Below, in pieces: positions 1-56,237 of a DNA stretch of 59,373 nt. The position numbers and the translations under genes were made by a program. The stretch's first letter is position 1; every line of letters starts with the position of its first letter. The stretch comes from an uncultured Acidobacteriota bacterium (lineage in GTDB: Bacteria; Acidobacteriota; Polarisedimenticolia; JACPZX01), in the NCBI GenBank assembly GCA_964568735.1, contig CAZMRF010000008.1, forward strand, positions 42,261 to 101,633, read 5' to 3'. The notes beneath the pieces were generated by a model, which was not told where the DNA came from, did not search any database, and saw nothing but the letters and a program-made list of their open reading frames with translations.

Positions 1-1336
1 AGAACGAGACCATCGCCGTCTACGACTTCGGAGGGGGCACCTTCGACATCTCCATCCTGGAGGTCGGTGAGGGCGTGGTCGAGGTGAAGTCCACGAACGG
101 CGACACGCACCTGGGTGGTGACGACATCGATCAGAAGATCATCGAGTGGATCGTCAGCGAATTCAGGAAGGACCAGGGAATCGACCTCGGCAACGACAAG
201 ATCGCGCTGCAGCGGCTGAAGGAAGCCGCCGAGAAGGCCAAGTGCGAGCTCTCCACGACCGTCGAGACGGAGATCAACCTGCCCTTCATCACGGCCGATT
301 CCTCCGGCCCCAAACATCTCCTGATCAAGCTGTCCCGGGCCACGTTCGAGTCGCTCGTCGACGACCTGATCCAGCGGACGGTTGAACCGTGCCGGCGGGC
401 GATGGCGGACGCGAAGCTCACGCCGGAGCAGATCCACGAGGTGGTCCTCGTGGGCGGCTCGACGCGGATTCCGAAGGTCCAGCAGGTGGTCAAGGAGTTC
501 TTCGCCCGGGAGCCTCACAAGGGCGTCAATCCCGACGAAGTCGTGGCCGTGGGAGCCGCCGTCCAGGGCGGAGTGCTGGGTGGAGAGGTCAAGGACATTC
601 TCCTCCTGGACGTCACCCCTCTCTCTCTCGGCATCGAGAGCGCAACACCACGATCCCGACGAAGCGAAGCCAGGTCTTTTCGACGGCCGAGGACGACCAG
701 CCTTCCGTCGACGTGAAGGTCTGCCAGGGCGAGCGCGAGATGGCCCGGCACAACAAGGTGCTCGGCAACTTCAGGCTGGAGGGCATTCCAGCCGCCCCCC
801 GCGGGGTGCCGCAGATCGAGGTCACGTTCGACATCGATGCCAACGGGATCCTCCACGTTTCCGCGAAGGACACCGGCACGGGCCGCGAGCAGAAGATCCG
901 CATCGAGGCAAGCAGCGGGTTGAGCAAGGACGAAGTTGAGAAGATGAGGCGCGAGGCGGAGACGCACGTGGAGGAGGATACGAAGTTCCGCGAGGAGGCC
1001 GAGCTGCGGAATCGCGCGGACGCGGCCGTCCATTCCACCGAGAAGATGCTCAAGGAGGCGGGCGAGAAGCTCCCGGCATCCGACAGGGAGGCGATCCAGA
1101 AGGAGTTGACCGCGCTTCGCACCGCGCTGAAGGGGGGCACCGGTCCCGAGATCCAGAGGGCGATGGAGGGTCTGACCGCGGCACAGCACGAGATGGCTCA
1201 GCGCGTTTACTCGACCAAGGCCGCCGGCACGAGCCCGGAGGGCGAAGGCGCGGGACGCGCCCCCGGGGCCCCCGAGGGCGGCAAGGAGAGCGACGTCGTG
1301 GATGCGGAGTTCGTCGACGTGGACGACAAGAAATAG
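1..1336 (+). CDS. dnaK: Molecular chaperone DnaK (Hsp70), C-terminal ~2/3; 5' end cut by the window edge. Reading frame switches from +3 to +2 at about nt 636-641, so this is a possible pseudogene or an assembly error.
   Basis: Frame +3 (75..716) gives canonical Hsp70 sequence ([49 protein letters not shown]). Frame +2 (389..1336 ORF) continues with NTTIPTK...[20 protein letters not shown]...[10 protein letters not shown]. About 10 residues (TLGGVMTKLI) are missing at the junction. Confidence 0.85.
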
Positions 1337-1428: not shown

Positions 1429-2310
1429 ATGCAACAGGGGAACCGCCCAGAACGCGGAGGCTCCAGTTCACAGAGTCTGAAGAAGTATCTTCAAGAGATC
1501 GCAAAGCTCCCGCGGATCACTGCCGACGAAGAGAAGAAGCTCGGGGCCCGGATCAAGCGGGGTGGCAGAGAGGGACGGGAGGCCATCCAGAAGCTCGTGG
1601 AGGCCAACCTCCGGTTCGTCGTCAGCTTTGCCAAGAAGTACCGCGGCTGCGGACTCTCCTTCCTTGACCTGATCAACGAAGGCAACATCGGCCTCATCGA
1701 GGCGGCGAAGCGCTTCGACCCCGGCAAGAACGTCAAGTTCATCACCTACGCCGTCTGGTGGATCCGGCAGTCGATCGTCCACGCTCTCTCCGATCAGAGC
1801 GGGGCCTTCAGGCTCCCCCAGAAGCAGGCCAACCTCCTCTACCGGATCGGCAAGACGATCCAGCAGCTCACGCTCGAGAACGAGCGGGCGCCGAGCCCGG
1901 AGGAAATCGCGGACCGGCTGAAGATCCAGCCGGAGGAGGTCACCGCGCTGCTCCGGGTCGCCGACGACAACGTCTCTCTCAGCACCGTGATCGACGAGGA
2001 GCACAACTTCCACGTCGCGGACAAGATCGAGCAGGATTCGGTGACGGCCCCGGACGAGAACTACTTCCGCTCCTCGCTCAAGGACCTCATCCGCGGCTGC
2101 CTGGAGGACCTCGACGACAAGGAAGAGCTCGTGGTCCGGCTCCGCTTCGGGCTTGCCGAAGGAGGCGGGGAGAAGGACCCGATGACGTTGAAGGAGATTG
2201 GCGATATCCTCCACCTGTCCAGGGAGCGGATCCGGCAGATCGAGGCCCAGGCGCTCGAGAAGATGTTCCGTTCCGAACGAGTCCAGCATCTCAGGATCTA
2301 CTTGAACTGA
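1429..2310 (+). CDS. RNA polymerase sigma factor, sigma-70 family (RpoD/RpoS-like, no region 1.1). The ORF can extend to a GTG at 1390.
   Basis: Regions 2-4 are recognisable: [54 protein letters not shown], and a C-terminal HTH ([27 protein letters not shown]). About 293 aa. Confidence 0.85.
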
Positions 2311-2404
2311 CGCCGGAAGCGCCAGGGCATCAGGATTGGTCGTGACGGGCTCCCGGGAGCCTCTCGGAGGCGTGACCCGGGCAGGCTCACAGAGGCTCTC
2401 TCCC

Positions 2405-3244
2405 ATGAGGCCCGACAGCACCCCTCGTCCAGCAGGCGCCCCCGATCGCTCGCCGCCCCCCGCGAGCGTCAGGTGTCCCGACTGCGGAGGAACCGGGTTT
2501 CGCGTGATCCGGGAGGGCGGCAGCGGCCGAAGCTATGCCGGCCCCTGCCCCTGCACGCGGGAAGAGAGGGTCCGGGCCCTGCTCCGGCGCGCCCGCATCC
2601 CGAGCCGCTACTCCGCCTGTGACTTCGGGTCCTTCTCCACCGACGCTCGCTTCGATCCGTCCATCGAGAGGGCCTGCATGGCAACGCGCGAGTTCGTCCA
2701 GAGCTACTCGGCGCGCCGGGCCCGCGAGGAGGCGGAGTTCGGCCTGCTGCTCCTCGGCCCCCCCGGGGTGGGGAAGACGCACCTCGCGGTGGCCGCGCTG
2801 CGCGAGCTGATCCTCGAGCACGGGGTCCAGGGGCTTTTCGCCGACTTCCGCGAGCTCATCAAGAGCCTGCAGGCCTCCTACGATCCGCTCGCGCAGGACT
2901 CCGAGATGGAGCTTCTCCGGCCCCTCGTCCAGGCCGAAGTCCTGGTCTTCGACGACCTGGGCGCGGCCCGGATGACCGAGTGGGTCCGCGACATGGTCGG
3001 CCACATCGTCAACAGCCGCTACAACGAACGGAAAGTCACCCTCATCACCAGCAACCTCAGCGACGCTCCCGCGGGCAAGGACTCGAACCACCCGGTTCTC
3101 ACCGAGCGGATCGGCCCGGCGGTTCGATCGAGGCTGCACGAGATGTGCGTGTCGGTCGAGATCACGGGGAAGGACTTTCGTGTCAATGAGGACTTCCGCC
3201 TCAACGTGAAGCGATCGACCCGCCGGCCTCGCCGGCGGAGCTGA
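2405..3244 (+). CDS. DnaC/IstB-family AAA+ ATPase with N-terminal C4 zinc ribbon (helicase-loader-like). The ORF can extend to 2336.
   Basis: CPDCGGTG...CPC zinc ribbon; Walker A LLLGPPGVGKTHLAVA; Walker B VLVFDDLG; sensor LITSNL. No transposase partner nearby. Confidence 0.7.
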   Translation: MRPDSTPRPAGAPDRSPPPASVRCPDCGGTGFRVIREGGSGRSYAGPCPCTREERVRALLRRARIPSRYSACDFGSFSTDARFDPSIERACMATREFVQSYSARRAREEAEFGLLLLGPPGVGKTHLAVAALRELILEHGVQGLFADFRELIKSLQASYDPLAQDSEMELLRPLVQAEVLVFDDLGAARMTEWVRDMVGHIVNSRYNERKVTLITSNLSDAPAGKDSNHPVLTERIGPAVRSRLHEMCVSVEITGKDFRVNEDFRLNVKRSTRRPRRRS

Positions 3245-14997: not shown

Positions 14998-15417
14998 ATG
15001 CAAGCCGCCCCGGCCCTCAGCGTGCTGACCTTCGAGGTCGGACCCTATCTCTTCGCGGTACCGGCGTCGGACGTGAGGAGAATCCTCAACTCGGGAGAGC
15101 AGCCTCCGGAGGGAACCACGATCGTGGACGCCGTCGGTCTGCTCCACGAAACAGAAGGCGCGGAATCCACGGGCCGGGAGGTTCTGCTCCTCCTGGCGGG
15201 AAGCACCCCTGCCGGATCGCCGCTCGCGGTGAGGGCCTCGCGGGCTGCGGAGGTGCGCCCGCTCAGGCCGGAGTGGCTGCTTCCATTTCCCGGCTTCATC
15301 TTCCGCAGGGAGAATCCTTTCCTCGGACTCGTTCCTCCGGGCGCGGGCTCGGAAACGAGGCCGGTCTTCGTTCTTGCGGGCCCGGAGAGGCTGCTGGCAT
15401 GCGCGGGCGACCTCTAG
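14998..15417 (+). CDS. CheW-like domain protein (degenerate)
   Basis: VLTFEVGPYLFAVPASDVRRIL resembles the CheW N-terminal motif (LTF.LG.E.YGI.V..V.EI), with C-terminal PVFVLAGPERLL. 140 aa. Confidence 0.55.
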   Translation: MQAAPALSVLTFEVGPYLFAVPASDVRRILNSGEQPPEGTTIVDAVGLLHETEGAESTGREVLLLLAGSTPAGSPLAVRASRAAEVRPLRPEWLLPFPGFIFRRENPFLGLVPPGAGSETRPVFVLAGPERLLACAGDL

Positions 15418-15863
15418 CGGGCGTCCCCTGGGTCGGGTTCCTGATCGACGAGGTCGCTCTCGCCGTCGAGGCGAGACTGGTCAAGGCGGTCACCTGGAGC
15501 CGGGGCCTCATCCGGGTGCCCTTCGTGAAGCGGAGCGTCGCCGGCGTGATCGTGCGGGGCGGAAGGATCGTCCCGGTCCTGGACCTGGCCCTGGTGCCCT
15601 CGGCGTGGAACCGAATGCCCCGCCCGGGCGGGAGCCAGGTCGTGATCGTCGGGGAGGGCGAGATGGAAGCCGGCATCCTCGCCCGCTCCACCGAGACCTT
15701 CCACGCCGCGGAGCTCCATGCGGCGACTGGAGGAGGGAGCCTTGCGCGGGTGAGGGAGTCCCTCCTGGAGGGGATTGTCGAGGTGGCCGGTAGAACGTAC
15801 GGGGTCTTGAAGATTTCCGTGGCGCTGCACGCGGCCGGGGTGCCGCAGACCTTCTCCGGGTAG
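15399..15863 (+). CDS. CheW-like domain protein (second copy, overlapping the first by 19 nt)
   Basis: VGFLIDEVALAVEARLVKAVTW...VAGVIVRGGRIVPVLDL...QVVIVGEGEMEAGILARSTETF fits CheW topology. 154 aa. Confidence 0.55.
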   Translation: MRGRPLAGVPWVGFLIDEVALAVEARLVKAVTWSRGLIRVPFVKRSVAGVIVRGGRIVPVLDLALVPSAWNRMPRPGGSQVVIVGEGEMEAGILARSTETFHAAELHAATGGGSLARVRESLLEGIVEVAGRTYGVLKISVALHAAGVPQTFSG

Positions 15864-15896
15864 TCCGGAGGCACGAGGAGAGAGGGCGACGAGACC

Positions 15897-16781
15897 ATGG
15901 CGAAGAAGATCCTGCTGGCCGATGACAGCATCACCATCCAGAAGGTCGTCGAGCTGACCTTCTCCGAAGGCGACTATGAGGTGTTCTGCGCGAGCGATGG
16001 CGCCCAGGCGATACGGAAGATCGAGGAGATCGTTCCCGACATCGCCCTCGTGGACGTCATGATGCCGCAGAGGAACGGGTACGACGTCTGCGCGCACGTC
16101 AAGAAGGATCCGAACCTCGCATGGATCCCCGTGCTCCTCCTCACCGGCACCTTCGAGCCGTACGATCCGAAGCGCGCCGGCGAGGTCGGAGCCGACGGGC
16201 ACATCATCAAGCCCTTCGAATCCAGGGCCCTCGTGGGCCAGGTCGAGGATCTCGTGTCGCGCCATCCGAGACCTGGAGCCAGGGGAGAGTCACGGGCACC
16301 CGTGATGCCGCCTCCGGCCGCCGCGCCCCAGGAAGCGAGGGAGAGACCGGCACCTGCGCCCCCGGCCGCTCTGGGCCCCGCGACCGTGCGGATCGACTCC
16401 CGCGCCTTCTTCAACCAGATGGAGCCGGCGGCGCCCCCGGCCGCGCCCACGCCGTCCCTGGGCCCGCTGGATCTCGGCTCAGGGGAGGGATCCATCGAGC
16501 CAACCCGGCCCATGCGCGCCACCGCGCCCCGTCCTCCCGCTCCCGCCCCCGTGGCAGCCACCGTCCCGAAGAGCGCGGGCCCCCGGGAGGAGGACATCGC
16601 GCGAGCCGCCCGGGAGAAGGTCGAGGAGCTGGCGAGGCCGATCATCGAGAAAGCGGCCGAGAAGATCATCCAGGAAATCGCCTGGGAGGTCATCCCCGAG
16701 CTTGCAGAGACGATCATCAAGCACAGGATCAAGGAGCTCGAGGAAGAGGCCGCCTCGGAGGGGGGAGCCCCGCTCCACTGA
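15897..16781 (+). CDS. Response regulator: receiver domain plus Pro/Ala-rich linker plus Glu-rich alpha-helical C-terminal segment (RomR-like architecture)
   Basis: REC: KILLADDSITIQKVVE...LVDVMMPQRNGYDV...HIIKPFE. An ~110-aa PAPAP-rich linker follows, then C-terminal EEDIARAAREKVEELARPIIEKAAEKIIQEIAWEVIPELAETIIKHRIKELEEEAASEG. Confidence 0.7.
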   Translation: MAKKILLADDSITIQKVVELTFSEGDYEVFCASDGAQAIRKIEEIVPDIALVDVMMPQRNGYDVCAHVKKDPNLAWIPVLLLTGTFEPYDPKRAGEVGADGHIIKPFESRALVGQVEDLVSRHPRPGARGESRAPVMPPPAAAPQEARERPAPAPPAALGPATVRIDSRAFFNQMEPAAPPAAPTPSLGPLDLGSGEGSIEPTRPMRATAPRPPAPAPVAATVPKSAGPREEDIARAAREKVEELARPIIEKAAEKIIQEIAWEVIPELAETIIKHRIKELEEEAASEGGAPLH

Positions 16782-19391
<2,610 letters not shown>

Positions 19392-28517: not shown

Positions 28518-29804
28518 ATGGTCCTATTCAACTACTCGACAAAAGAGCTCACCGCCAAAATCGTCTACTACGGGCCCGGTCTTTGCGGGAAGACGACGAA
28601 CCTCCAGTTCATCTTCGAGAATCTCCCGGCGAACATCCACAAAGGGAAGATGCTCTCCCTGGCGACGAAGACGGACCGGACTCTCTTCTTCGATTTCCTG
28701 CCCATCGATCTCGGGACGATCCGCGGCATGCGGACCCGGCTGCAGCTCTACACCGTGCCGGGCCAGGTCTTCTACAACACCACGCGGAAGCTCGTCCTGA
28801 AGGGCGCGGATGGCCTCGTCTTCGTCGCCGACTCGCAGAAGAAGATGCTCGACGCCAACAGCGAGTCCTTCGGCAACATGGAACAGAACCTGCGCGAGCA
28901 CGGGATGGAGCTCGAGACCATCCCCCATGTCCTCCAGTTCAACAAGCGCGACCTCAGGGACATCCTGAGCGTCGAAGAGCTCAACGCCGCGCTCAACAAG
29001 CACAACGTGCCGATCTACGAGGCCGTGGCCACGACGGGGATCGGGGTCCAGGACACGCTCAAGGCGGTCACGCGACTGGTGCTGAACTCCCTCCGCGAGA
29101 AGTACTCCGACGGCAAGAAGACCTCGACGCAGCGCGCCGCCGCGGCCGCATCTGCCGCGCGGCCGGCCCGGCAGGCTGCCTCGGCCCAGGTCGCGCCCCG
29201 CGAGCCGCTCGAAGTCGAGCCTGTCCTCGAGCTCGACGATGAGCCGGCGCTGGCACCTTCTCGCGAGCCCGAACCCGTGCTCGCTGTCGCCGCCGAGGAG
29301 GCCGTGGAGATCGAGGAGATCCAGGACGACATCGAGGAGGTTCCTGTGCTCGAGGTCGCCGAGGAGGAGGTCGGAGAGGCCGTGATCATCGAGGAGTCTC
29401 CCGCGATCAGCCTCGACGAATCTTCGCCCCTCAAGCTCGAGGAGCCCGAAACCGGCGCGCCGGGCCGCTTCGACGAGATCGAGATGACCCCCGAAGCCGA
29501 AGAAGAGCCGGCGCAGGGAGCGCCTCTGGGTGCCGCGCGCGCCCGTCAGCCCTTCGAGATGGACTCGAAGGCCTACGAGCTGGCGTCGCCGCTCGACGAG
29601 ACCGTCGCGGACGGCGCGACGGTGGCGATCGACGTGGCTGCCGCGGGCTCGAGGAGCTCACCCGGGAGGCCGCCGCTTCCGGGGAGAAGGGCCGCGCCGG
29701 GCAGCTCCGCCGCCCGCGAGGCCTCCTTCCCGCTCGAGATCGAGGTCCAGGGCCGTACCGTGCGACTCGAGGTGACCATCAGCGTTCGGGTCGATAAGAA
29801 TTGA
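28518..29804 (+). CDS. mglA: MglA-family Ras-like small GTPase with a ~230-aa acidic, low-complexity C-terminal extension
   Basis: N-terminal ~195 aa strongly similar to Myxococcus MglA: KIVYYGPGLCGKTTNLQFI (P-loop), TDRTLFFDF (intrinsic Arg finger), LYTVPGQVFY (catalytic Gln), QFNKRDL (G4), TLKAVTRLVL. This is followed by a tail rich in E/A/P/V (EEVPVLEVAEEEVGEAVIIEESP...). Confidence 0.85.
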   Translation: MVLFNYSTKELTAKIVYYGPGLCGKTTNLQFIFENLPANIHKGKMLSLATKTDRTLFFDFLPIDLGTIRGMRTRLQLYTVPGQVFYNTTRKLVLKGADGLVFVADSQKKMLDANSESFGNMEQNLREHGMELETIPHVLQFNKRDLRDILSVEELNAALNKHNVPIYEAVATTGIGVQDTLKAVTRLVLNSLREKYSDGKKTSTQRAAAAASAARPARQAASAQVAPREPLEVEPVLELDDEPALAPSREPEPVLAVAAEEAVEIEEIQDDIEEVPVLEVAEEEVGEAVIIEESPAISLDESSPLKLEEPETGAPGRFDEIEMTPEAEEEPAQGAPLGAARARQPFEMDSKAYELASPLDETVADGATVAIDVAAAGSRSSPGRPPLPGRRAAPGSSAAREASFPLEIEVQGRTVRLEVTISVRVDKN

Positions 29805-29826: not shown

Positions 29827-31059
29827 ATGAACCTGGACTGTCCTGGCTGCCGATCCCGACTCAAGCTGGATCCTTCGAAGCTCCCGCCCGGGGCCACCGC
29901 GGCGGTTTGCCCGAAGTGCCGGACGAAGATCCTCCTGCCCGGCACCGCCTCCACGGCGGAGATTTCGGTCCAGTGCAGCAGGTGCGCCTCTCGCCTCAAG
30001 GTCAAGGTCGCGAGGCTCAGGCAGACTCCCAGCAAGAGCAAGTGCCCCAAGTGCGGAAACGCCGTGGACCTCCCCGCGGCGCCTTCCGCGGGGGGCTCCA
30101 GAAGCTCCGCCACGCAGATCCCCGGAGCGTCCCCGCCGGCGAAGCCCCCCCAGCCCCCCGGCGTGGACCGCTCGGCGATGACGCGCCGGCTCGATGCGCG
30201 GGAGATGGGGATGCTCATGCAGGGCCAGGGAGCCCAGGCTCCTGACGCACTGCCGTCGGCCCCGATCTCCCTCGAGGATCCGCCCTCCGGCGCCTTCGAG
30301 AGCAGCTCCTCCGATCTCGGCCGCCTCATCGACGAGAAGGTCGACGCCCTGGGCGAGCTCGGCGAAGCGCCGCCCCCCCAGAGCCCCCGCTTCGGCGAGT
30401 CATCCGTGGAGGATCTGGCCATCGAGCTCTCCCGGTCGGGGGAGCCCATGCCTGATGCCTCCCCGGAGCATCACGAATCGGGCGCCCGCATCTCCGCCGG
30501 CCCGAGGGCCGTCGCCGAGGCCCCGGCGCCGCCTGGCGCGCCTCCCGCAGGCCGGCGAGCGGGATCCAGTTCAGGAAGCAGGGCCATCCCCACCTTCAGC
30601 GCCGTGGCTGGAGCCGCGCCGCGGGCAGCCTCGGGGCCGGGAGCCTTCCCCTTCGTTCTCGGCGGAATCATCGGAGGATCGCTCGTGGCCGCCGGGCTCA
30701 TCCTCGGGGGACGCTTCCTGCCCTCCGGGTTCGTGCCTCCCGTCCCCGAACCGATCTCCGTGCTGACACGCGAGAGCCTCGGGCTCCTGGGGCTGTTGAT
30801 CTTCCTGTCGGCGCTCTCCGGGCTCTTCGCCTCCTTCGCGCTGCCCCCCGCGGGCGAGGGGAAGGAGGGCAGGATCTCCATTTTCCGGTGCGCGGTGGCC
30901 GCCGGGCTCGTGGGGCTTCTCGCGGGCGTGGGCATTGCCCTCATCCGCGGCGGCGCCGACCTCACGTCGATGTCCCTGCCGGCAGCCACGTGGACGGCGG
31001 CGCTGGTCCTCTCGGGACTGCTGACCGGCCTCGTGGCGCGTGTCTTCTCGGGCCGCTAG
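29827..31059 (+). CDS. Double zinc-ribbon (MJ0042-type) protein with Pro/Ala-rich linker and C-terminal transmembrane helices
   Basis: CPGC-x17-CPKC and CSRC-x17-CPKC ribbons at the N-terminus. A Pro/Ala/Ser-rich region follows, then 3-4 hydrophobic helices (FPFVLGGIIGGSLVAAGLILGG..., LLGLLIFLSALSGLFASFAL..., LVGLLAGVGIALI...). Confidence 0.65.
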   Translation: MNLDCPGCRSRLKLDPSKLPPGATAAVCPKCRTKILLPGTASTAEISVQCSRCASRLKVKVARLRQTPSKSKCPKCGNAVDLPAAPSAGGSRSSATQIPGASPPAKPPQPPGVDRSAMTRRLDAREMGMLMQGQGAQAPDALPSAPISLEDPPSGAFESSSSDLGRLIDEKVDALGELGEAPPPQSPRFGESSVEDLAIELSRSGEPMPDASPEHHESGARISAGPRAVAEAPAPPGAPPAGRRAGSSSGSRAIPTFSAVAGAAPRAASGPGAFPFVLGGIIGGSLVAAGLILGGRFLPSGFVPPVPEPISVLTRESLGLLGLLIFLSALSGLFASFALPPAGEGKEGRISIFRCAVAAGLVGLLAGVGIALIRGGADLTSMSLPAATWTAALVLSGLLTGLVARVFSGR

Positions 31060-31193
31060 GAGCCCCGGCGAGCCCCGGATCCGTCGCGCTCTCCGACGTT
31101 CGCAAGGGGGCGCCTCCCGTCTTAGAATCCAGCAGCCGTAGCGGAGCGCCGGCCGGGGTGGCCTACGACTCCCTCGCATTCCGGAGAGACACC

Positions 31194-32270
31194 TTGAGAC
31201 GACGGTTCCTCCTGCTCGTGATGACCGGGACGATGGCGGCGAGTGCAGCTCTCGCGCAGCCCTCCAGCCCGTCCGGCCTGAACGTCTACCCCTCCTTCCA
31301 TCTCAAGTTCGAGAGGGGGGGCGGGACCTATCTTCTCGCCAGCACGATCATCGTGAACGTCAGCGACAAGACCGTGCGCGACCTGACGCTCCAGCAGACC
31401 TACCCCCACGACCTGGTGCCCACGGCCGCGCCGGCGGGCATCCACGAGTACTTCGCACGGCCCGAGGGCTTCGTGGAATCGGTCGAGGGTCAGGTCTACA
31501 CGATGACGACCCCATTGCTCCGCAGGGGCGAGATGACCTCCGCTCTGGCCCTGCTGAAATACGATGGACGTCCCTCCACCGCCGTGATCCCTCCGGCGCA
31601 GATCAAGTACGCCGCCGCGGGCGAGAGCTTCACCGAGAGCGGGCCCGCGCTCACGCTCGATCTCAAGAAGTACACGAAGTACAGCGGGACGCTCGCCGAG
31701 TTCATCAAGCGCTACGCCGGGATTCTCCTCGAGTTCCCCGAGTCGGAGGGACCGGACTGGGGCTTCTCGGGCTTCGCATCCAGCGTCAGGGCGAAGACGC
31801 CCATCGGCATGGTGGAGATCGAGGGCGATGCGGCGGAAGGGCGCTTCAGCCTGATCCGGGGGGAGCCGGGCGACACGAGGCTGCTCCTCGTGGCCTGGAA
31901 GGCCGAGCCGAATGCGGGCTTGGCCGAGAGCAGGGCCCAGGTGCTCGACGTGGTCCGGCGCCAGATCATGCCGTCAGCGGCCTTCGAGCTCGACATGGAA
32001 GGCGCCACCGTCGAGAAGGGCCGTCTCGGCCGGTACGAGGCCTGGATCATCGCCTCCCGCTGGACCGACAAGGTCGTGGACCGGCTGGGTGAGGGCCCCG
32101 CGCGGTGGTACCTCTACGACGACACGACCAGGAAGCGACGGTACCTCGTGCTGATCGCCACGCAGGGGCGGGGAGCCGGCCCGGGCAAGGCGGACACTCC
32201 CAACCCCGAGAAGGAAGCAGCCCTGATGAAGGAGCTCGAGCAGATCGCGAGCAGCTTCCGGGCGCTCTAG
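31194..32270 (+). CDS. Secreted hypothetical protein (signal peptide; TTG start)
   Basis: Signal peptide MRRRFLLLVMTGTMAASAALA/QP; ~358 aa with no recognisable motif. Confidence 0.5.
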   Translation: MRRRFLLLVMTGTMAASAALAQPSSPSGLNVYPSFHLKFERGGGTYLLASTIIVNVSDKTVRDLTLQQTYPHDLVPTAAPAGIHEYFARPEGFVESVEGQVYTMTTPLLRRGEMTSALALLKYDGRPSTAVIPPAQIKYAAAGESFTESGPALTLDLKKYTKYSGTLAEFIKRYAGILLEFPESEGPDWGFSGFASSVRAKTPIGMVEIEGDAAEGRFSLIRGEPGDTRLLLVAWKAEPNAGLAESRAQVLDVVRRQIMPSAAFELDMEGATVEKGRLGRYEAWIIASRWTDKVVDRLGEGPARWYLYDDTTRKRRYLVLIATQGRGAGPGKADTPNPEKEAALMKELEQIASSFRAL

Positions 32271-32285
32271 GAGCCCGGCAGGATC

Positions 32286-33236
32286 ATGCCCCGCCTCCGG
32301 CGGTCCCTCCTCGGCGCTGCGGCAGCCTGCGTCGTCGCCTGCGCGGGGTCCTGGCTGGCGGGAGAGGTCAGCCCTCTGACCCTCTACCAGAAGACCGCGC
32401 GCGCGGCGCTCGTGGCCAGGGTCCGAGCCACCGACGACAGCACGCGACGCCCCACGCTCGAGGTCCTTCACGTATTCAAGGGGGACTACACACGGCCCTA
32501 CCTGACGATCGTGCCCTTCAGGCAGGACTACGCCAGCGAGAAGCCGTGGCTCCGCTCGGAAGTCTTCAGGGAAGGCCGGGAATACGTGCTCTTCCTGGAT
32601 CCCTACCACGAGGAGGCGAAGGCGGGCGATTTTCCCGTCGAGACTCCGGAGGCAGCCCCTCCGGAGGAGAACTCGCTCTTCGTCGTGCTCAACGCCCATC
32701 TCGGCGTGCTCGACGTTCCAGCCGAGGGCGGCGAGGCCCTCACCGGCGCCCTGGAGAGATTCGCCTCGATTCTCGCGCTGCGCGAGTTCGATCTCCAGGC
32801 GCGCGCCTTCCGCGCCCTTCTGCGCGAACCCAACCCGTACCTGCTGGAAGCGGGTCTCGACGAGGTCGCACGCTTCCGCCTGGCCACGGAGGACGATCTG
32901 GATCCTCTGGAGGCCACGCTCGGATCCGTTCGGCCCTCGTTCCGGCGATCGGCCGCCGAGATCCTCGGCCAGATCGGGGACGACGCCCGGCGGGCGGGAA
33001 GGAGGCTCTCCCGCCAGAGCGAGATCGTCGACAGGATCGCCGCGCGGGCCCTGACGGACGAGGCCGCCGAGGTGCGCGCCGAGTCGGCGAGGAGCCTCGG
33101 GCTCCTCGGTGGACCGGAGGCCGGGGCGCTCCTGCGCCGGATCAGCCGGCAGGATGCCGACCAGCAGGTCCGCTACAGCGCCGAGGTCGCCCTGGCGGAG
33201 ATCGAAGGAGGCCTTCCGCCCCCGCGCCACCGGTGA
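32286..33236 (+). CDS. HEAT-repeat (PBS-lyase-like) protein with N-terminal signal or lipoprotein-like sequence
   Basis: C-terminal repeats of the form R.SAAE.LG.IGD..A...L, VRAESARSLGLLGGPEAGALL, and QQVRYSAEVAL. N-terminal LLGAAAACVVACAG. Confidence 0.5.
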   Translation: MPRLRRSLLGAAAACVVACAGSWLAGEVSPLTLYQKTARAALVARVRATDDSTRRPTLEVLHVFKGDYTRPYLTIVPFRQDYASEKPWLRSEVFREGREYVLFLDPYHEEAKAGDFPVETPEAAPPEENSLFVVLNAHLGVLDVPAEGGEALTGALERFASILALREFDLQARAFRALLREPNPYLLEAGLDEVARFRLATEDDLDPLEATLGSVRPSFRRSAAEILGQIGDDARRAGRRLSRQSEIVDRIAARALTDEAAEVRAESARSLGLLGGPEAGALLRRISRQDADQQVRYSAEVALAEIEGGLPPPRHR

Positions 33237-37936: not shown

Positions 37937-37962
37937 CACTCGCTTCGAGCGGGTCCTATCAT
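37933..37962 (+). promoter_or_regulatory. Candidate sigma-70 promoter (TTGACA-18-TATCAT) upstream of the cNMP/FHA gene
   Basis: TTGACA at 37933-37938; TATCAT at 37957-37962. Confidence 0.3.
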
Positions 37963-38002
37963 CGGCCTCCATCGGCGTGATCCCCGCGCCGTCCCTCCGC
38001 GC

Positions 38003-38839
38003 ATGGCCAACCCCTTCAAGGACTACATCGTCAAGCTGAGAGCCGGTGACCTGGTTTTCAAGGCCGGCGACCCGGGGACGGAGATGTACATCGTCCAGTC
38101 GGGAACGGTCGAAGTCTTCTCGGAAGGCCCGCGGGGCTCCACCGTCCTCGCCGTGATGGAGAAGGGCGACTTCTTCGGGGAGATGGCGCTCCTCGACGGC
38201 GCGCCTCACATGGCCTCCGCCCGGGCCGTCGAGGATGTCGAGCTCATCGAGATCAACAGCACTCTCTTCGACCGGATGATCAAGGCGAACACCGAGATCG
38301 CCGTGCGAATGCTCAGGAAGCTCTCCATCCGGCTGCGTGAGGCCAACAAGGCTCTCGACGGAGCGCTCGCAGCCGGCGACCGCGAGGCCCCCCCCCTCCC
38401 CGAAGCACCCGCCGCCGCCATCCCGGCGGACGCCGCTCGCACGAAGGCGGAGCCGGCGTCCCCCTCGCATGGGGCTCTCAGGGCACCGGACATGGCCTCC
38501 CTCGAGGGCTGCCATGCCTTCTTCCACGCGGAGGAAGGACAGGAGACATTTCCCATCCGGACCGACAAGGCCGTCCTGGGCCGGTTCGATCCCGTGACCG
38601 GGCTCAAGCCGGAGGTCGATCTCTCCAGCGCCGACATCAACCGTTCGGTCTCACGCCAGCACGCCCGGCTCACGCAGGAGGGCGGGGTCTACTACCTCTG
38701 CGAGGAGCCCGGCGCCCTCAACGGCACGTTCATCAACGGCAGGAAGCTCATCACGGGGAAGCCCACCCGCATCCGAGACGGCGACGCCGTCACGCTCGGA
38801 ATGGTCAAGATGACCTTCCGGGAAGCGGGGAAGAGTTGA
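38003..38839 (+). CDS. Cyclic-nucleotide-binding domain protein with C-terminal FHA domain
   Basis: cNMP-binding fold (GDLVFKAGDPGTEMYIVQSGTVEVF...GDFFGEMALLDGAPHMASARAV...). After an Ala/Pro linker comes an FHA domain (GRFDPVTGLKPEVDLSSADINRSVSRQHARLTQEGGVYYLCEEPGALNGTFINGRKL...DGDAVTLG). Confidence 0.75.
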   Translation: MANPFKDYIVKLRAGDLVFKAGDPGTEMYIVQSGTVEVFSEGPRGSTVLAVMEKGDFFGEMALLDGAPHMASARAVEDVELIEINSTLFDRMIKANTEIAVRMLRKLSIRLREANKALDGALAAGDREAPPLPEAPAAAIPADAARTKAEPASPSHGALRAPDMASLEGCHAFFHAEEGQETFPIRTDKAVLGRFDPVTGLKPEVDLSSADINRSVSRQHARLTQEGGVYYLCEEPGALNGTFINGRKLITGKPTRIRDGDAVTLGMVKMTFREAGKS

Positions 38840-50297: not shown

Positions 50298-50555
50298 CGA
50301 GAGTCGCGCCCTGCATAAAGTTTACATAAGATACATTATCGGCGGTCTGGGGATGGCGCCTCCTGGCCCGGGACTCCCGACGCGGCGCACGTCCCGCTGC
50401 CCAGGCCGCCTTTTCCGTCCATCCTGTCGCCTCCCGCTTCCAGCTCGACATCCGGGGCCTCGTCTTCCGATCGCCCCTCGCAACCCCACGGGCATGTGGT
50501 CTAGCATCCGGCGCGGCCTGACGCCCGATCCCGGACGCCGCCGCGGCACCCTGCC

Positions 50556-52997
50556 ATGACCCGCATCCAGCGATACGTCTTTCGCGAGCTCCTTGGTCCG
50601 ACCGTGGTGGGAGTTCTCGCCTACGGCCTGATCTTGATGACCAATCTCTCCATGCACGCCGCGGAAATGATGATCCGGAGGGATCTCCCGGTCAGCCTCG
50701 TCGCGCAGTTCGTGGCCCTGGCTCTTCCACGAATCGCCGTCCTGACTCTCCCCATGGCCGTCCTCCTGGGCACCCTCGTCGGAATCGGCCGTCTCGTCAG
50801 CGACAACGAGCTGTCGGCCCTCCGTTCGCTCGGCTACAACGATCGACGGCTGATCCTCCCAGCGCTCGCCCTGGGCTTGCTCGCCACGGCGGTCACCTGG
50901 GTGCTCTTCGACACCGCCGTTCCCACCGCCAACTACCAGCAGCACCAGCTCCAGGCGCGCATCTTCATCTCGTCCGACCTGAACAGGGAGATCCAGCCCC
51001 GGACCTTCTACGAGAAGATCCCGGGGCTCCTCATCTACGCCGACGAGGCGAATCCCACGGACGGCACGCTCCAGCGTGTCCTCATCCACCAGAAGACCGA
51101 GGGCGGCCGTGAGGAGATCTCGACCTCGGGGCGGGCCCGGATCGAGTACCGCGACGAGGACGGCGTGCTGAACTTCCGCCTGGAGGACGTCGTATCGCAC
51201 ACCTGGGACCAGGCCGACCCCCTCGTTTACCAGGTGGCTCGGCGCGACGAGGAGAGCATCGTTCGGCCTCCCGATATCTTCACGACGGAGATGCTCCGGT
51301 CGCTCGAAAAGCCTCCGCCGCCCAACCTCCGCGAGCAGAGCATGGTCCAGCTCCTCGACACCATACGCAGCTTCAAGCAGATGGAGCCCGGAGCCATCAG
51401 GCGCCGATACAGGAACGAGGCATGGGTCGAGCTCCACAAGAAGTTCGCCATCCCGGCGACCTGCCTCGTCTTCGCCTTCCTCGCGCTGCCGCTGGGTCTC
51501 TCCCAGCGCCGCGGAGGCCGGGCCTGGGGTTTCCTCATCTCCCTGCTGGTCGTGGCCGTCCAGTATTTTCTGCTCACGACCGGCGAGCAGACCGCCGACA
51601 GAGGGCGCATGCCGCCCTGGCTCGCCATGTGGCTGGGCAACCTCATCTTCCTCGCCGTCGGGTGCATTCTCCTCGCCATCGCGGGACGCTGGAGCTGGGA
51701 CCCGGGGGCCCTGCTCGCGCGAATGACTTTCAGGCGCCGCGGCGTCCCCGCGCCGGCCCCGGCGGAGCCGGAGCCCCCCGCTCAGCATCAGACAGCGGCG
51801 CTCCCTCAGGCCGCCCCTGAACCGACCGGGGCGGCAGCCGAGCTCCCACCCGTGCAGGCCGCCCGCGCTCCGCGCTTCATACCCCCCGAGCCGCTCCCCT
51901 GGCGCAGGAGGTTCCTGCCCGCCATCGACCTGTACATGCTCAGGACGCTGACCTTCGTCGGCGCCATCGTCGCCCTCTCGCTGACGCTCCTTTTCGCGCT
52001 CTACGCCATGGTCGATCTCATCGACGACATGAGCCGCGGCCGCGCCTCGCCTGCGCTCCTGCTCCAGTACCTCGGCAACGTGCTCCCGCAGTTCATCACG
52101 AGCTATGTCCTGCCGATGACCCTGTGCGCCGCCACGCTCATCACCTTCGCCCTTCTCGCGCGCACCCACGAGCTCACGGCGCTTCGCAGCGCCGGGGTCG
52201 GCCCCTTCCGCGTGGCCTGGACATTCCTGATCGTGGGGATCCTCGCCGCGGCGACCAGCTTCGGCGCCCTGGATTCCATACTCCCCGCCACCAACCAGAA
52301 CGCCATCGAGCTGCGGGACCGCATCCGGGGAAGGAGCCCGCGCAGCTACCGCCAGACCGAGCGGAGGTGGGTCTTCGGGAGCAGCGGCGATCTGGTCACC
52401 TTCTCGAGCTTGAGACCGGATCCCGGGGAGATCCTCGACCTGACGATGATGAAGTTCCATCCAGGCACCCTGCGCGTGAAGGAACGCATCTTCGCCGAGC
52501 GCGCCCTCTGGCACGAGGATCGGGGATGGGAGCTCGTCCATGGATGGCGCCGCGAATTCGGGGACGGGGGCGAGCGCTATGAGGAGTTCGATGTGCGGCC
52601 CGCGGCCGAGCTCGACCCGCCGGCCTATTTCTCCCAGGAATGGAAGGCGCCCGACCAGATGAACATCGGGGAGCTCCGTTCACACGTCTCCGATCTCAAG
52701 CGGCGCGGGTACGACACACGCGAGATCCAGGTCGGCCTCCATCGCAAGATCGCGGTTCCGGCCATCTGCGTGGTGATGGTCCTGATCGCGCTGCCCTTCG
52801 GCCTGCGGATCGAGAAGCGGGGGCCGCTCTTCGGCCTCGGCGTCGCGCTGCTCATCGCGGCCGTCTATTTCTTCCTCATGCAGGTGAGCGGGAAGGTCGG
52901 GGAGATCGGGCTCCTTCCGCCGGTACTGGCCGCGTGGGCGCCGAACGTCCTCTTCTCCGGCGCCGGGCTCTACCTCATGGCCTCGAGCCGCTGGTAG
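50556..52997 (+). CDS. Fused LptF-LptG-like LPS export permease (two YjgP/YjgQ permease modules in one 813-aa protein)
   Basis: First module: MTRIQRYVFRELLGPTVVGVLAYGLILMTN..., about residues 1-400. A Pro/Ala-rich linker follows. Second module starts LPAIDLYMLRTLTFVGAIVALSLTLLFALYAMVDLIDD... Each module has the typical 3 TM + periplasmic loop + 3 TM layout. Confidence 0.7.
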   Translation: MTRIQRYVFRELLGPTVVGVLAYGLILMTNLSMHAAEMMIRRDLPVSLVAQFVALALPRIAVLTLPMAVLLGTLVGIGRLVSDNELSALRSLGYNDRRLILPALALGLLATAVTWVLFDTAVPTANYQQHQLQARIFISSDLNREIQPRTFYEKIPGLLIYADEANPTDGTLQRVLIHQKTEGGREEISTSGRARIEYRDEDGVLNFRLEDVVSHTWDQADPLVYQVARRDEESIVRPPDIFTTEMLRSLEKPPPPNLREQSMVQLLDTIRSFKQMEPGAIRRRYRNEAWVELHKKFAIPATCLVFAFLALPLGLSQRRGGRAWGFLISLLVVAVQYFLLTTGEQTADRGRMPPWLAMWLGNLIFLAVGCILLAIAGRWSWDPGALLARMTFRRRGVPAPAPAEPEPPAQHQTAALPQAAPEPTGAAAELPPVQAARAPRFIPPEPLPWRRRFLPAIDLYMLRTLTFVGAIVALSLTLLFALYAMVDLIDDMSRGRASPALLLQYLGNVLPQFITSYVLPMTLCAATLITFALLARTHELTALRSAGVGPFRVAWTFLIVGILAAATSFGALDSILPATNQNAIELRDRIRGRSPRSYRQTERRWVFGSSGDLVTFSSLRPDPGEILDLTMMKFHPGTLRVKERIFAERALWHEDRGWELVHGWRREFGDGGERYEEFDVRPAAELDPPAYFSQEWKAPDQMNIGELRSHVSDLKRRGYDTREIQVGLHRKIAVPAICVVMVLIALPFGLRIEKRGPLFGLGVALLIAAVYFFLMQVSGKVGEIGLLPPVLAAWAPNVLFSGAGLYLMASSRW

Positions 52998-55983: not shown

Positions 55984-56237
55984 CCGGCGCGCGGCCGGAG
56001 GTTCCCGAGCATTCTAGTCCCCGCCTCCGGGCGCGCCTCCCCTCCCGCCCGGGCCTCCTCCCCGACGATCGAGTTCGGTGTGCCGGCCGGCGGAGGGGCT
56101 GGCTCCGTGAGCCGGTGCTCGAGGGCCGCAGCCGGGAACGGGTGAGGAGATCGAGCCCTAGAGTCAGCGTCGAGGCGCGACGGCGAGCCCGCCCGACGGG
56201 CCTGGAGGTCCGGAACGTTGCGGAATCCGGCCGGCTC

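What the first reader, a model, noticed from the sequence alone, without database searches (positions are those of the whole stretch)
14998..16781. Orphan CheW-CheW-response-regulator module with no CheA or MCP; the regulator has RomR-like architecture
Two overlapping, degenerate CheW-like genes are followed by a response regulator. The regulator has a receiver domain, an ~110-aa PAPAP-rich linker and a short Glu-rich helical C-terminus (EEDIARAAREKVEELARPIIEKAAEKIIQEIAWEVIPELAETIIKHRIKELEEE). This domain organisation is characteristic of RomR, the polarity regulator that acts with MglA/MglB in Myxococcus. An mglA ortholog lies 12 kb downstream. CheW pairs with no kinase are reminiscent of FrzA/FrzB-type adaptors. 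Taken together this suggests a polarity or motility signalling module outside Myxococcota.
Basis: partly seen in the sequence, partly recalled or inferred. Interest (0 to 1): 0.6.

Follow-up and report, generated by a model that had tools for sequence, protein, structure and literature searches.

The report
RomR polarity-regulator locus in an acidobacterium
This is the acidobacterial counterpart of the Myxococcus romR locus (two CheW-like adaptors, the RomR polarity regulator, then valyl-tRNA synthetase); RomR outside myxobacteria is already known, but the unstudied CheW pair turns out to travel with romR in several distant lineages.

Summary
There are two co-directional CheW-like genes (14998-15417 and 15399-15863), then a 294-aa response regulator (15897-16781). 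The valS start codon abuts its stop codon.

The regulator is a true RomR homologue, not a look-alike. Against M. xanthus RomR, which I fetched here, the receiver domain is 47% identical (E=7e-37) and the C-terminal helix 49% identical (E=1e-9). They share the core IAWEV(V/I)PxLAETII, including the Trp that M. xanthus RomR needs to bind MglC.

Leonardy 2007 describes the M. xanthus romR locus as MXAN4462 (two CheW domains), romR, ValRS. The window holds the same cassette with the double CheW split into two genes. I found CheW-CheW-romR in at least six separate RomR clades (GC 43-75%), always in housekeeping surroundings.

An MglA homologue lies 11.7 kb downstream. The window contains no CheA, MCP or MglB.

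RomR in Acidobacteria was reported in 2012 and 2015, so this is a new member of a known kind. The useful lead is that the uncharacterised double CheW may be a conserved RomR partner.

The parts
14998..15417 (+). cheW-like 1 (139 aa): a strongly divergent CheW-fold protein that lacks about 16 residues at the CheW beta4 / 'NLRG' region
15399..15863 (+). cheW-like 2 (154 aa): a more canonical CheW domain; it overlaps cheW-like 1 by 19 nt in another frame
   Evidence: Pfam PF01584 scores 29.1 bits against a cut-off of 23.5, covering profile positions 3-133 of 138. T. maritima CheW finds this family by phmmer. Orthologues sit in the same position in L003, L005, L043 and L045. GC3 is 0.90.
15897..16262 (+). 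romR receiver domain (aa 1-122), with acidic pocket D9/D10, phospho-acceptor D53 and K105
   Evidence: Pfam Response_reg scores 73 bits. It is 47% identical to the M. xanthus RomR receiver domain, E=7e-37. D9, D10, D53 and K105 are invariant in alignments that include M. xanthus RomR. AF2 pLDDT is above 90.
16263..16610 (+). romR Pro/Ala-rich disordered linker (aa 123-238), containing a conserved 'TVR' short motif at aa 163-165
   Evidence: The linker is 23% Pro and 22% Ala. AF2 shows coil with pLDDT 53-60. The linker does not align across the family. The TVR motif is kept in 41 of 51 acidobacterial-type sequences.
16611..16781 (+). romR C-terminal helix (RomR-C, aa 239-294, plus the stop codon); core IAWEVIPELAETII at 16677-16718; W263 is the equivalent of M. 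xanthus W394
   Evidence: BLASTP against M. xanthus RomR-C gives 49% identity over 39 aa, E=1e-9. W263, P267 and E271 are invariant or nearly so. AF2 shows a helix at 231-288 with pLDDT 80-93. W394 and E402 of M. xanthus RomR lie in the MglC-binding region, and W394A abolishes binding (PMC12719032).
16782..19391 (+). valS (valyl-tRNA synthetase), start codon abutting the romR stop; the conserved downstream neighbour of romR
   Evidence: The translation and the junction sequence TGAATG are. The orthologous neighbours carry the ValRS Pfam domains. valS lies within 600 nt downstream of romR in 24 of 32 metagenome loci and in the Myxococcaceae loci. MXAN4460 is a ValRS.
28518..29804 (+). mglA homologue (428 aa): an MglA GTPase domain (aa 1-194) plus a 233-aa acidic C-terminal extension; no mglB nearby
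   Evidence: It scores 258 bits, E=1.5e-75, against M. xanthus MglA (5ymx). The P-loop GPGLCGKTT, the TDRT arginine and the PGQ glutamine are conserved in the printed alignment. No neighbouring ORF has a Roadblock domain.

Best explanation
The locus is the romR locus of an Acidobacteriota bacterium. The synteny and the named relatives point to the class Polarisedimenticolia.

Shown here: the response regulator is a homologue of Myxococcus xanthus RomR in both conserved regions. These are the phosphorylatable receiver domain and the C-terminal RomR-C helix, joined by a non-conserved Pro-rich disordered linker. The gene sits in the same cassette as in M. xanthus: two CheW-like domains, then romR, then valS. 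In M. xanthus the two CheW domains are fused in one protein (MXAN4462); here they are two translationally coupled genes.

Inferred from the M. xanthus literature: RomR acts as a polar scaffold for the small GTPase MglA, which is encoded 11.7 kb away. Its receiver domain would bind a RomX-type adaptor that holds MglA-GTP. Its C-terminal helix, through the conserved Trp (W263), would dock a Roadblock-type MglC/MglB GAP complex. Together these would set the front-rear polarity of a surface-motility machine, most likely type IV pili.

Inferred from conserved gene order only: the two CheW-like proteins work with RomR. My preferred mechanism is a kinase-less adaptor pair. The canonical second CheW, and the first one that lacks the CheA-P5-contacting beta4 region (as FrzB does), would tether RomR's receiver domain to a chemosensory array or kinase encoded elsewhere, or to RomR's own polar cluster. 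This would gate RomR phosphorylation at D53.
For: RomR identity:
- BLASTP against M. xanthus RomR (L036, fetched with a published native primer) gives 47% identity and E=7e-37 for the receiver domain, and 49% identity and E=1e-9 for RomR-C.
- W263, P267 and E271 correspond to the invariant Trp and Pro of the published RomR-C logo, and to W394 and E402 of the MglC-binding region.
- The AF2 architecture of receiver, coil and long helix matches the published description of RomR.

Same cassette as in M. xanthus:
- Leonardy 2007, Fig. 1 legend.
- The L036 ORF 5384-6196 has two CheW stretches (52 bits), with valS 88 nt after romR.

CheW pair:
- Pfam and the fold search identify both proteins as CheW-like.
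- The pair is conserved in the same position in relatives, with dN/dS below 0.45.
- CheW-CheW-romR is also found in L076, L100 and L118 (both CheWs above the Pfam cut-off, flanked by LptF/G, pyrF and ABC-permease genes) and in L063, L064, L067, L079, L058 and L047.
- These loci fall in at least six clades of a receiver-domain tree, with GC 43-75%.

Other points:
- MglA.
- Intergenic gaps of 47, -19, 33 and 0 nt, with no excess of terminator-like sites, fit co-transcription.
Against: - No function was tested.
- MglB, MglC, RomX, CheA, MCP and pilus genes are absent from the window, and the rest of the genome was not available.
- Most RomR-family loci with enough upstream sequence have no CheW (29 of 35 in a non-random sample; L004). 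The CheW pair is therefore not obligatory for RomR.
- Profile-profile comparison does not establish one-to-one orthology between the window's CheW proteins and the two MXAN4462 domains (hhalign E about 1e-3 to 0.1).
- The even stronger romR-valS linkage shows that conserved gene order at this locus need not mean a physical partnership.
- The conserved Arg of the CheW 'NLRG' motif is not at the aligned position in CheW-like 2, so canonical array binding is uncertain.
Confidence: 0.75

Rival explanations
1. The regulator is RomR, but the CheW pair is only a passenger. On this view the cheW-cheW-romR-valS order is kept because the genes share a transcript with the essential valS, and the CheW proteins serve an unrelated chemosensory array elsewhere in the genome.
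For: romR-valS adjacency is even more widespread than cheW-romR (24 of 32 loci), although no RomR-ValRS functional link is known. Most RomR loci lack the CheW pair (L004). The published RomR interaction studies read here never report a CheW partner.
Against: The pair recurs immediately upstream of romR in at least six divergent clades, embedded in different housekeeping surroundings (LptF/G, pyrF, ABC permease, B12-binding mutase subunit). It is never accompanied by a CheA or MCP in the loci examined. It keeps the same internal order, with the more divergent CheW first. In Myxococcaceae the two domains are fused yet still sit next to romR.
Confidence: 0.3
2. The regulator is an ordinary CheY-like protein with a low-complexity tail that only mimics RomR, and the CheW-like ORFs are decaying remnants of a lost che operon.
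For: CheW-like 1 fails the Pfam and NCBIfam profiles. CheW-like 1 and 2 show no pairwise similarity. No CheA or MCP is nearby. The receiver domain also hits many generic response-regulator families.
Against: The tail is not low-complexity noise. It aligns to M. xanthus RomR-C with E=1e-9 and shares an almost identical 14-residue core. It is conserved in nearly all of the best 150 of 2090 representative clusters. Both CheW ORFs have gene-like GC3, conserved orthologues, dN/dS well below 1 and, for CheW-like 1, a confident CheW-fold model.
Confidence: 0.03
3. RomR here acts as an MglB-independent polar hub, as in Bdellovibrio. It would work with an orphan, extended MglA and other partners, and would control something other than reversing motility, for example pilus placement, secretion or growth polarity.
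For: mglA has no mglB within four genes and carries a 233-aa extension. In Bdellovibrio, MglA works without MglB, RomR is essential, and RomR binds a TPR protein and CdgA. Orphan MglA proteins are known. romR is tightly joined to housekeeping genes.
Against: The MglA P-loop keeps the Gly that is replaced by Ser in the GTP-locked Bdellovibrio protein, which suggests a GAP is still needed. RomR-C keeps the Trp required for MglC binding. mglB could simply lie outside the window.
Confidence: 0.2

Closest known systems
Myxococcus xanthus romR locus: MXAN4462 (two CheW domains) - MXAN4461 (RomR) - MXAN4460 (ValRS) (Leonardy et al. 2007, PMC2034494)
   Same: The gene order and orientation are the same: CheW-like, CheW-like, RomR, ValRS. 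RomR has the same three-part build. The receiver domain is 47% identical and RomR-C 49% identical, with the shared core IAWEV(V/I)PxLAETII and D53 at the same position. In both, the first CheW domain is the more degenerate.
   Different: Here the two CheW domains are separate, overlapping genes rather than one 271-aa protein. The linker is 116 aa rather than about 250 aa. The upstream neighbours are methylmalonyl-CoA mutase genes rather than a GGDEF response regulator and a hybrid kinase. At sequence level the CheW proteins cannot be matched one-to-one to the MXAN4462 domains.
RomR homologues already catalogued in Acidobacteria (e.g. Cabther_A0541, Acid345_0072, Acid_3193; Keilberg et al. 2012, PMC3441718; Guzzo et al. 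2015, PMC4546325)
   Same: They are from the same phylum and the same family, defined by the receiver domain plus RomR-C with an invariant Trp and Pro, and they co-occur with MglA.
   Different: Those papers list locus tags and co-occurrence with MglA/MglB/Frz. In the texts I read they do not mention a CheW pair or valS next to romR. According to the paper, two of the three acidobacterial entries lack RomR-C, whereas this one is complete. I did not fetch their sequences.
Bdellovibrio bacteriovorus RomR (Bd2761) with orphan MglA (Milner et al. 2014, PMC3983030)
   Same: It is a RomR homologue with a conserved receiver domain and C-domain and a divergent linker, working in a cell whose mglA has no adjacent mglB.
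   Different: Bdellovibrio MglA has a P-loop Ser that is thought to lock it in the GTP form. The MglA here keeps Gly and has a long C-terminal extension. The gene context of Bd2761 was not examined.
FrzA/FrzB CheW pair of the M. xanthus Frz system (Guiseppi et al. 2019, PMC6952110)
   Same: Both pair a canonical CheW with a divergent CheW that lacks the beta4-beta5 region contacting CheA-P5. CheW-like 1 lacks about 16 residues at that place and its model has one strand fewer.
   Different: FrzA and FrzB are encoded in a complete che operon with an MCP, a CheA, CheR and CheB. The pair here is encoded with romR and with no kinase or receptor. In other lineages the first CheW of the romR-linked pair keeps this region (L076, L100), so the deletion is not a defining trait of the cassette. 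Sequence relatedness to FrzA/FrzB was not tested.

Membership tests
RomR (as defined by Keilberg et al. 2012) | N-terminal receiver domain of the RomR subfamily (BLASTP to the RomR receiver domain at 1e-20 or better), with the phosphorylatable Asp53 | tested here: met
   47% identity and E=7e-37 against the M. xanthus RomR receiver domain. D53 is at the same residue number, and D9, D10 and K105 are invariant.
RomR (as defined by Keilberg et al. 2012) | Conserved alpha-helical, Glu-rich C-terminal region (RomR-C) with an invariant Trp and Pro | tested here: met
   49% identity over 39 aa, E=1e-9, against M. xanthus RomR-C. W263 and P267 are conserved. The tail is 25% Glu. AF2 shows a helix at 231-288.
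RomR (as defined by Keilberg et al. 2012) | Non-conserved, unstructured (Pro-rich) linker between the two conserved regions | tested here: met
   The linker is 116 aa, 23% Pro and 22% Ala. AF2 shows coil at pLDDT 53-60. The linker does not align across the family.
RomR (as defined by Keilberg et al. 2012) | Co-occurrence with MglA and MglB in the same genome | tested here: inconclusive
   MglA is present in the window. No Roadblock/MglB domain occurs in any large ORF of the window. The rest of the genome was not available.
RomR (as defined by Keilberg et al. 2012) | Genomic context of the type locus (two CheW domains upstream, valS downstream) | tested here: met
   Window. M. xanthus L036. Published locus description.
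RomR (as defined by Keilberg et al. 2012) | Polar localisation; binding of RomX/MglA-GTP by the receiver domain and of MglC by RomR-C | not testable with these tools
   Only the conservation of the M. xanthus W394 and E402 equivalents (W263, E271) could be checked.
CheW (Pfam PF01584) | Sequence match to the CheW-like domain profile above the gathering score | tested here: met
   This row is for CheW-like 2: 29.1 bits against 23.5, covering nearly the full profile.
CheW (Pfam PF01584) | The same profile test applied to CheW-like 1 | tested here: not met
CheW (functional coupling protein of chemosensory arrays) | Encoded with, or acting on, a CheA kinase and an MCP; conserved Arg of the 'NLRG' turn (E. 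coli R62) | tested here: not met
   There is no CheA or MCP in the 59-kb window or next to the cassette in L076, L100 and L118. The aligned position of R62 is Gly or Glu in CheW-like 2 and is deleted in CheW-like 1 (the alignment of such divergent sequences is uncertain). Partners encoded elsewhere cannot be excluded.
FrzB-type divergent CheW | Lacks the roughly 20-aa beta4-beta5 segment that contacts CheA-P5 | tested here: inconclusive
   CheW-like 1 has a gap of about 16 residues exactly at 'PAFIKGVTNLRGVIVP' of E. coli CheW, and its model has 9 rather than 10 strands. However, this rests on one MAFFT alignment and one medium-confidence model. No comparison with the FrzB sequence was made.
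MglA, group 1 (Wuichet & Sogaard-Andersen 2014) | Ras-like GTPase with the P-loop, the intrinsic Arg finger (R53) and the catalytic Gln (Q82) of MglA; usually coupled to mglB within four genes | tested here: met
   258 bits against M. xanthus MglA, with GPGLCGKTT, TDRT and PGQ conserved. The coupling to mglB is not met, which makes it an 'orphan' MglA in the sense. The 233-aa C-terminal extension is atypical.

The most novel reading that the evidence does not exclude
The two CheW-like proteins (MXAN4462 in M. xanthus) are an ancient, dedicated and so far overlooked component of the RomR polarity hub. They would form a kinase-less adaptor pair that plugs RomR's receiver domain into a chemosensory array or kinase. 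That would supply the missing physical link between Frz-type signalling and RomR (Guzzo 2015 states that FrzE has not been shown to be the RomR kinase and that intermediates may exist). The cheW-cheW-romR(-valS) cassette would then be the ancestral form of the locus, repeatedly trimmed in many lineages.
Probability: 0.3. Interest if true: 0.6.

Novelty: new member of a known kind. Interest (0 to 1): 0.4.

Why it matters
As a RomR/MglA locus in an acidobacterium, this extends a known distribution and is ordinary.

The comparative by-product matters more. The two-CheW-domain gene next to romR was mentioned once, in a 2007 figure legend, and was said to be required for fruiting in unpublished work. 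I found no later mention of it in the searchable literature. That gene pairing is conserved from Myxococcota to Acidobacteriota and in several other unidentified lineages, always without a kinase or receptor.

How chemosensory signals reach RomR, and what phosphorylates D53, are still open questions in the Myxococcus polarity field. A conserved CheW-type adaptor encoded with romR is a concrete candidate that can be tested genetically in M. xanthus.

The survey also shows that the RomR family is much larger than the 31 proteins catalogued in 2012, with about 2090 clusters (50% identity) at E<=1e-30. It further shows that romR is almost always followed by valS. This second point is relevant when interpreting romR deletions, including the reported essentiality in Bdellovibrio.

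Tried and rejected
- A homologue search with the C-terminal 70 aa alone found one fragment only, because the word index was too sparse for so short a query. The full-length search was used instead.
- PDB sequence searches found no RomR or RomR-C entry.
- Looking up cluster members to obtain organism names returned none.
- The JBC 2025 supplement holds the RomR alignment only as an image. Its codon-optimised mutagenesis primers gave a partial RomR-C peptide, with one base apparently dropped in the printed primer. I therefore used the native primers of Keilberg 2012 to fetch romR from genome contigs. This consumed the single genome scan, so no organism-named survey of the family was possible.
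- BLASTP between the two CheW-like proteins, and against MXAN4462, showed nothing significant. hhalign of the small family alignments was also not significant, so one-to-one orthology of the CheW domains is not claimed.
- The promoter/terminator scan gave counts at the chance level.
- An exact look-up of the MglA protein found no record.
- The idea that the two CheW ORFs are one frameshifted gene is rejected. Relatives have them as separate genes, with gaps or overlaps in different frames.
- The idea that the FrzB-like deletion is a general feature of the first CheW of the cassette is rejected. L076 and L100 keep the segment.
Full report
**Observation**

The window is high-GC (about 68%), and third-position GC identifies the coding frames. 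At the reported coordinates there are four tightly packed + strand genes:
- cheW-like 1, 14998-15417 (139 aa).
- cheW-like 2, from the ATG at 15399 to 15863 (154 aa). It overlaps the first by 19 nt in another frame.
- A response regulator, 15897-16781 (294 aa).
- valS, 16782-19391, whose ATG directly follows the regulator's TGA.

Upstream lie two acyl-CoA dehydrogenase genes and the two methylmalonyl-CoA mutase subunits. Pfam places cheW-like 2 in PF01584 (29.1 bits, cut-off 23.5) and the regulator's first 116 residues in Response_reg (73 bits). cheW-like 1 reaches only 11.7 bits, and NCBIfam has nothing for either CheW. The linker is 116 residues with 23% Pro and 22% Ala, and the tail is 56 residues with 25% Glu. 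AlphaFold2 models this as a confident receiver domain, a low-confidence coil and one long helix at 231-288.

**The regulator is RomR**

The family is very large. There are 3042 hits below 1e-10 in the word-indexed search. In the exhaustive search there are 2090 clusters (50% identity) below 1e-30. Nearly all of the best 150 share the N-terminus KILLADDSITIQKVVELTF and a C-terminal R-E-I-A-W-E-V-(I/V)-P-x-L-A-E motif, separated by linkers of very different length. Source names, where given, are Acidobacteriota, often Candidatus Polarisedimenticolia.

To test membership directly I needed M. xanthus RomR. The native cloning primer from Keilberg et al. 2012 (Table S2) retrieved romR from 36 Myxococcaceae genomes, including M. 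xanthus AM003 (L036). The 419/420-aa translation starts MPKNLLVADDSLTI and ends IKDRETQH, as the published primers and numbering require.

BLASTP of the window protein against it gives 47% identity over the receiver domain (E=7e-37) and 49% identity over 39 residues of the C-terminal helix (E=1e-9). The core is IAWEVIPELAETII here and IAWEVVPQLAETII in M. xanthus. D53 is at the same residue number. W263 and E271 correspond to W394 and E402. W394 is the residue whose mutation abolishes binding of RomR-C to MglC (PMC12719032). W263, P267 and E271 are invariant or nearly so in alignments spanning the family, which matches the 'invariant Trp and Pro' of the published RomR-C logo. All sequence-level criteria for RomR are therefore met.

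**The CheW pair**

Aligned with E. coli and T. maritima CheW, cheW-like 1 lacks about 16 residues at the beta4/'NLRG' segment. This is the segment whose absence stops FrzB from binding the CheA-type kinase FrzE (Guiseppi 2019).

Both genes look functional:
- GC3 is 0.79 and 0.90.
- Orthologues in the same position are 50-93% identical.
- dN/dS is about 0.26-0.43, although synonymous sites are near saturation.

They are separate genes in every relative, so the overlap is not a sequencing frameshift.

**The same locus exists in Myxococcus**

In the Myxococcaceae loci, the ORF directly upstream of romR (L036 5384-6196, 271 aa) contains two CheW-like stretches (Pfam 52 bits). The gene directly downstream is valS. 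Leonardy et al. 2007 say exactly this in the legend of their Fig. [quoted passage not shown] Full-text searches found no other paper that mentions MXAN4462 or a CheW next to romR.

Pairwise and profile-profile comparisons do not reach significance between the window's CheW proteins and the MXAN4462 domains. The correspondence therefore rests on fold, architecture and synteny, not on demonstrable one-to-one orthology.

**Distribution**

In close relatives the order is rpoN-hpf-acd-acd-mcm-B12-cheW-cheW-romR-valS-nadC-birA-coaX (L003, L005/6, L043, L045). A more distant acidobacterial relative has the same backbone without the CheW pair (L004).

A metagenome scan with a family alignment returned 80 loci. 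I screened them with an iteratively built CheW HMM and with the window's ValRS, with these results:
- valS starts within 600 nt after romR in 24 of 32 complete RomR-C loci.
- A CheW-like gene lies directly upstream in 6 of 35 loci that have at least 900 nt of upstream sequence, and in 4 more with shorter flanks.
- In L076, L100 and L118, Pfam confirms two separate CheW genes. They are flanked by an ABC permease, pyrF and LptF/G respectively, with no CheA or MCP.
- In L063 the two domains are fused, as in Myxococcus.
- In every case the first CheW scores lower than the second.

The CheW-positive loci have 43-75% GC. They fall into at least six separate clades of a rough neighbour-joining tree of receiver domains, interleaved with CheW-negative clades. 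The sample is the 'best 80' of more than 600 candidates, and the tree has no support values. The frequencies are therefore indicative only.

**Rest of the window**

An MglA homologue lies at 28518-29804, 11.7 kb downstream. It scores 258 bits against M. xanthus MglA, with the P-loop, arginine finger and catalytic glutamine conserved. It carries an unusual 233-aa Ala/Glu/Pro-rich C-terminal extension.

Its neighbours are der, a zinc-ribbon membrane protein, an ORF without Pfam hits and a HEAT-repeat protein. None has a Roadblock domain. No large ORF in the window has CheA, MCP or Roadblock domains. Group 1 MglA proteins in Acidobacteria, and 'orphan' MglA proteins in general, are already described.

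**How it most likely works**

- *Shown:* homology of the regulator to RomR in both functional regions, a CheW fold for both upstream proteins, the conserved cassette, and the MglA homologue.
- *Inferred from M. xanthus work:* the receiver domain binds a RomX-type adaptor that captures MglA-GTP. The C-terminal helix binds an MglC/MglB Roadblock complex through the conserved Trp. The disordered linker contributes to polar clustering. Together these define the front and rear poles for surface motility.
- *Inferred from gene order only:* the CheW pair acts with RomR. I favour a kinase-less adaptor that couples RomR's receiver domain to a chemosensory array or kinase encoded elsewhere.

The main rival is that the CheW genes are passengers in a transcript anchored by the essential valS. 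The still stronger and functionally puzzling romR-valS linkage keeps that rival alive.

**Novelty and verdict**

RomR homologues in Acidobacteria were catalogued in 2012 and again in 2015. RomR with an orphan MglA was studied in Bdellovibrio in 2014.

What I could not find in the literature is that the uncharacterised double-CheW gene accompanies romR across phyla. That is a modest but testable lead for an open question, stated: how chemosensory signals reach RomR and what phosphorylates it.

Noticed in passing
window 16779-16784 (romR TGA / valS ATG); L003-L006, L007-L042, L045 and many of L047-L126: romR is almost always followed directly by valS. valS starts within 600 nt in 24 of 32 complete RomR-C metagenome loci, in the Myxococcaceae loci with enough flank, and in the acidobacterial relatives. 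In the window the stop and start codons abut. No functional link between RomR and ValRS is known. The linkage could make romR deletions polar on an essential gene, which may bear on the reported essentiality of RomR in Bdellovibrio (speculation).
   Followed up: partly
window 28518-29804, with neighbours 29827-31059, about 31062-32270 and 32271-33236: The MglA homologue carries a 233-aa Ala/Glu/Pro-rich C-terminal extension and has no mglB within four genes. It is followed by a zinc-ribbon membrane protein, an ORF with no Pfam match and a HEAT-repeat protein, which might be its partners.
   Followed up: partly
window 3-1336, junction at about 630-646: dnaK is split over two reading frames. At GGCATCGAG|AG|CGCAAC the conserved 'TLGGVMTKLI' stretch between '...SLGIE' and 'RNTTIPTK...' is missing (about 31 nt), which shifts the frame. 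This is either an assembly error or a disrupted gene.
   Followed up: partly
window 16383-16391 (RomR aa 163-165; wider motif TVRIDSRAFF at 16383-16412): A short 'TVR' motif inside the otherwise unalignable Pro-rich linker is kept in 41 of 51 acidobacterial-type RomR sequences. It may be a short linear binding motif.
   Followed up: no
window 14998-15863; L036 5384-6196; L076, L100, L118: In every CheW-CheW-romR locus the first CheW domain scores lower against Pfam CheW than the second (11.7/29.1, 26/65, 40/73 and 84/100 bits; MXAN4462 has a weak N-domain and a strong C-domain). This suggests a fixed division of labour within the pair.
   Followed up: partly
whole RomR family: The RomR family is far larger than the 31 proteins catalogued in 2012. 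About 2090 clusters (50% identity) score E<=1e-30. Protein lengths run from about 220 to 850 aa because of the variable linker. Source names are mostly Acidobacteriota.
   Followed up: partly
window 52975-56013 (- strand) and 50505-52997 (+ strand): One 1012-aa protein combines an SPFH/Band-7 domain, a type I phosphodiesterase domain and many TPR repeats. A separate 830-aa ORF has two LptF/LptG permease stretches and appears to be an LptF-LptG fusion.
   Followed up: no
window 37937-38839 and 2306-3244: One protein combines a cyclic-nucleotide-binding domain with an FHA domain. Separately, an IstB/DnaC-like ATPase ORF lies next to a sigma-70-family gene.
   Followed up: no
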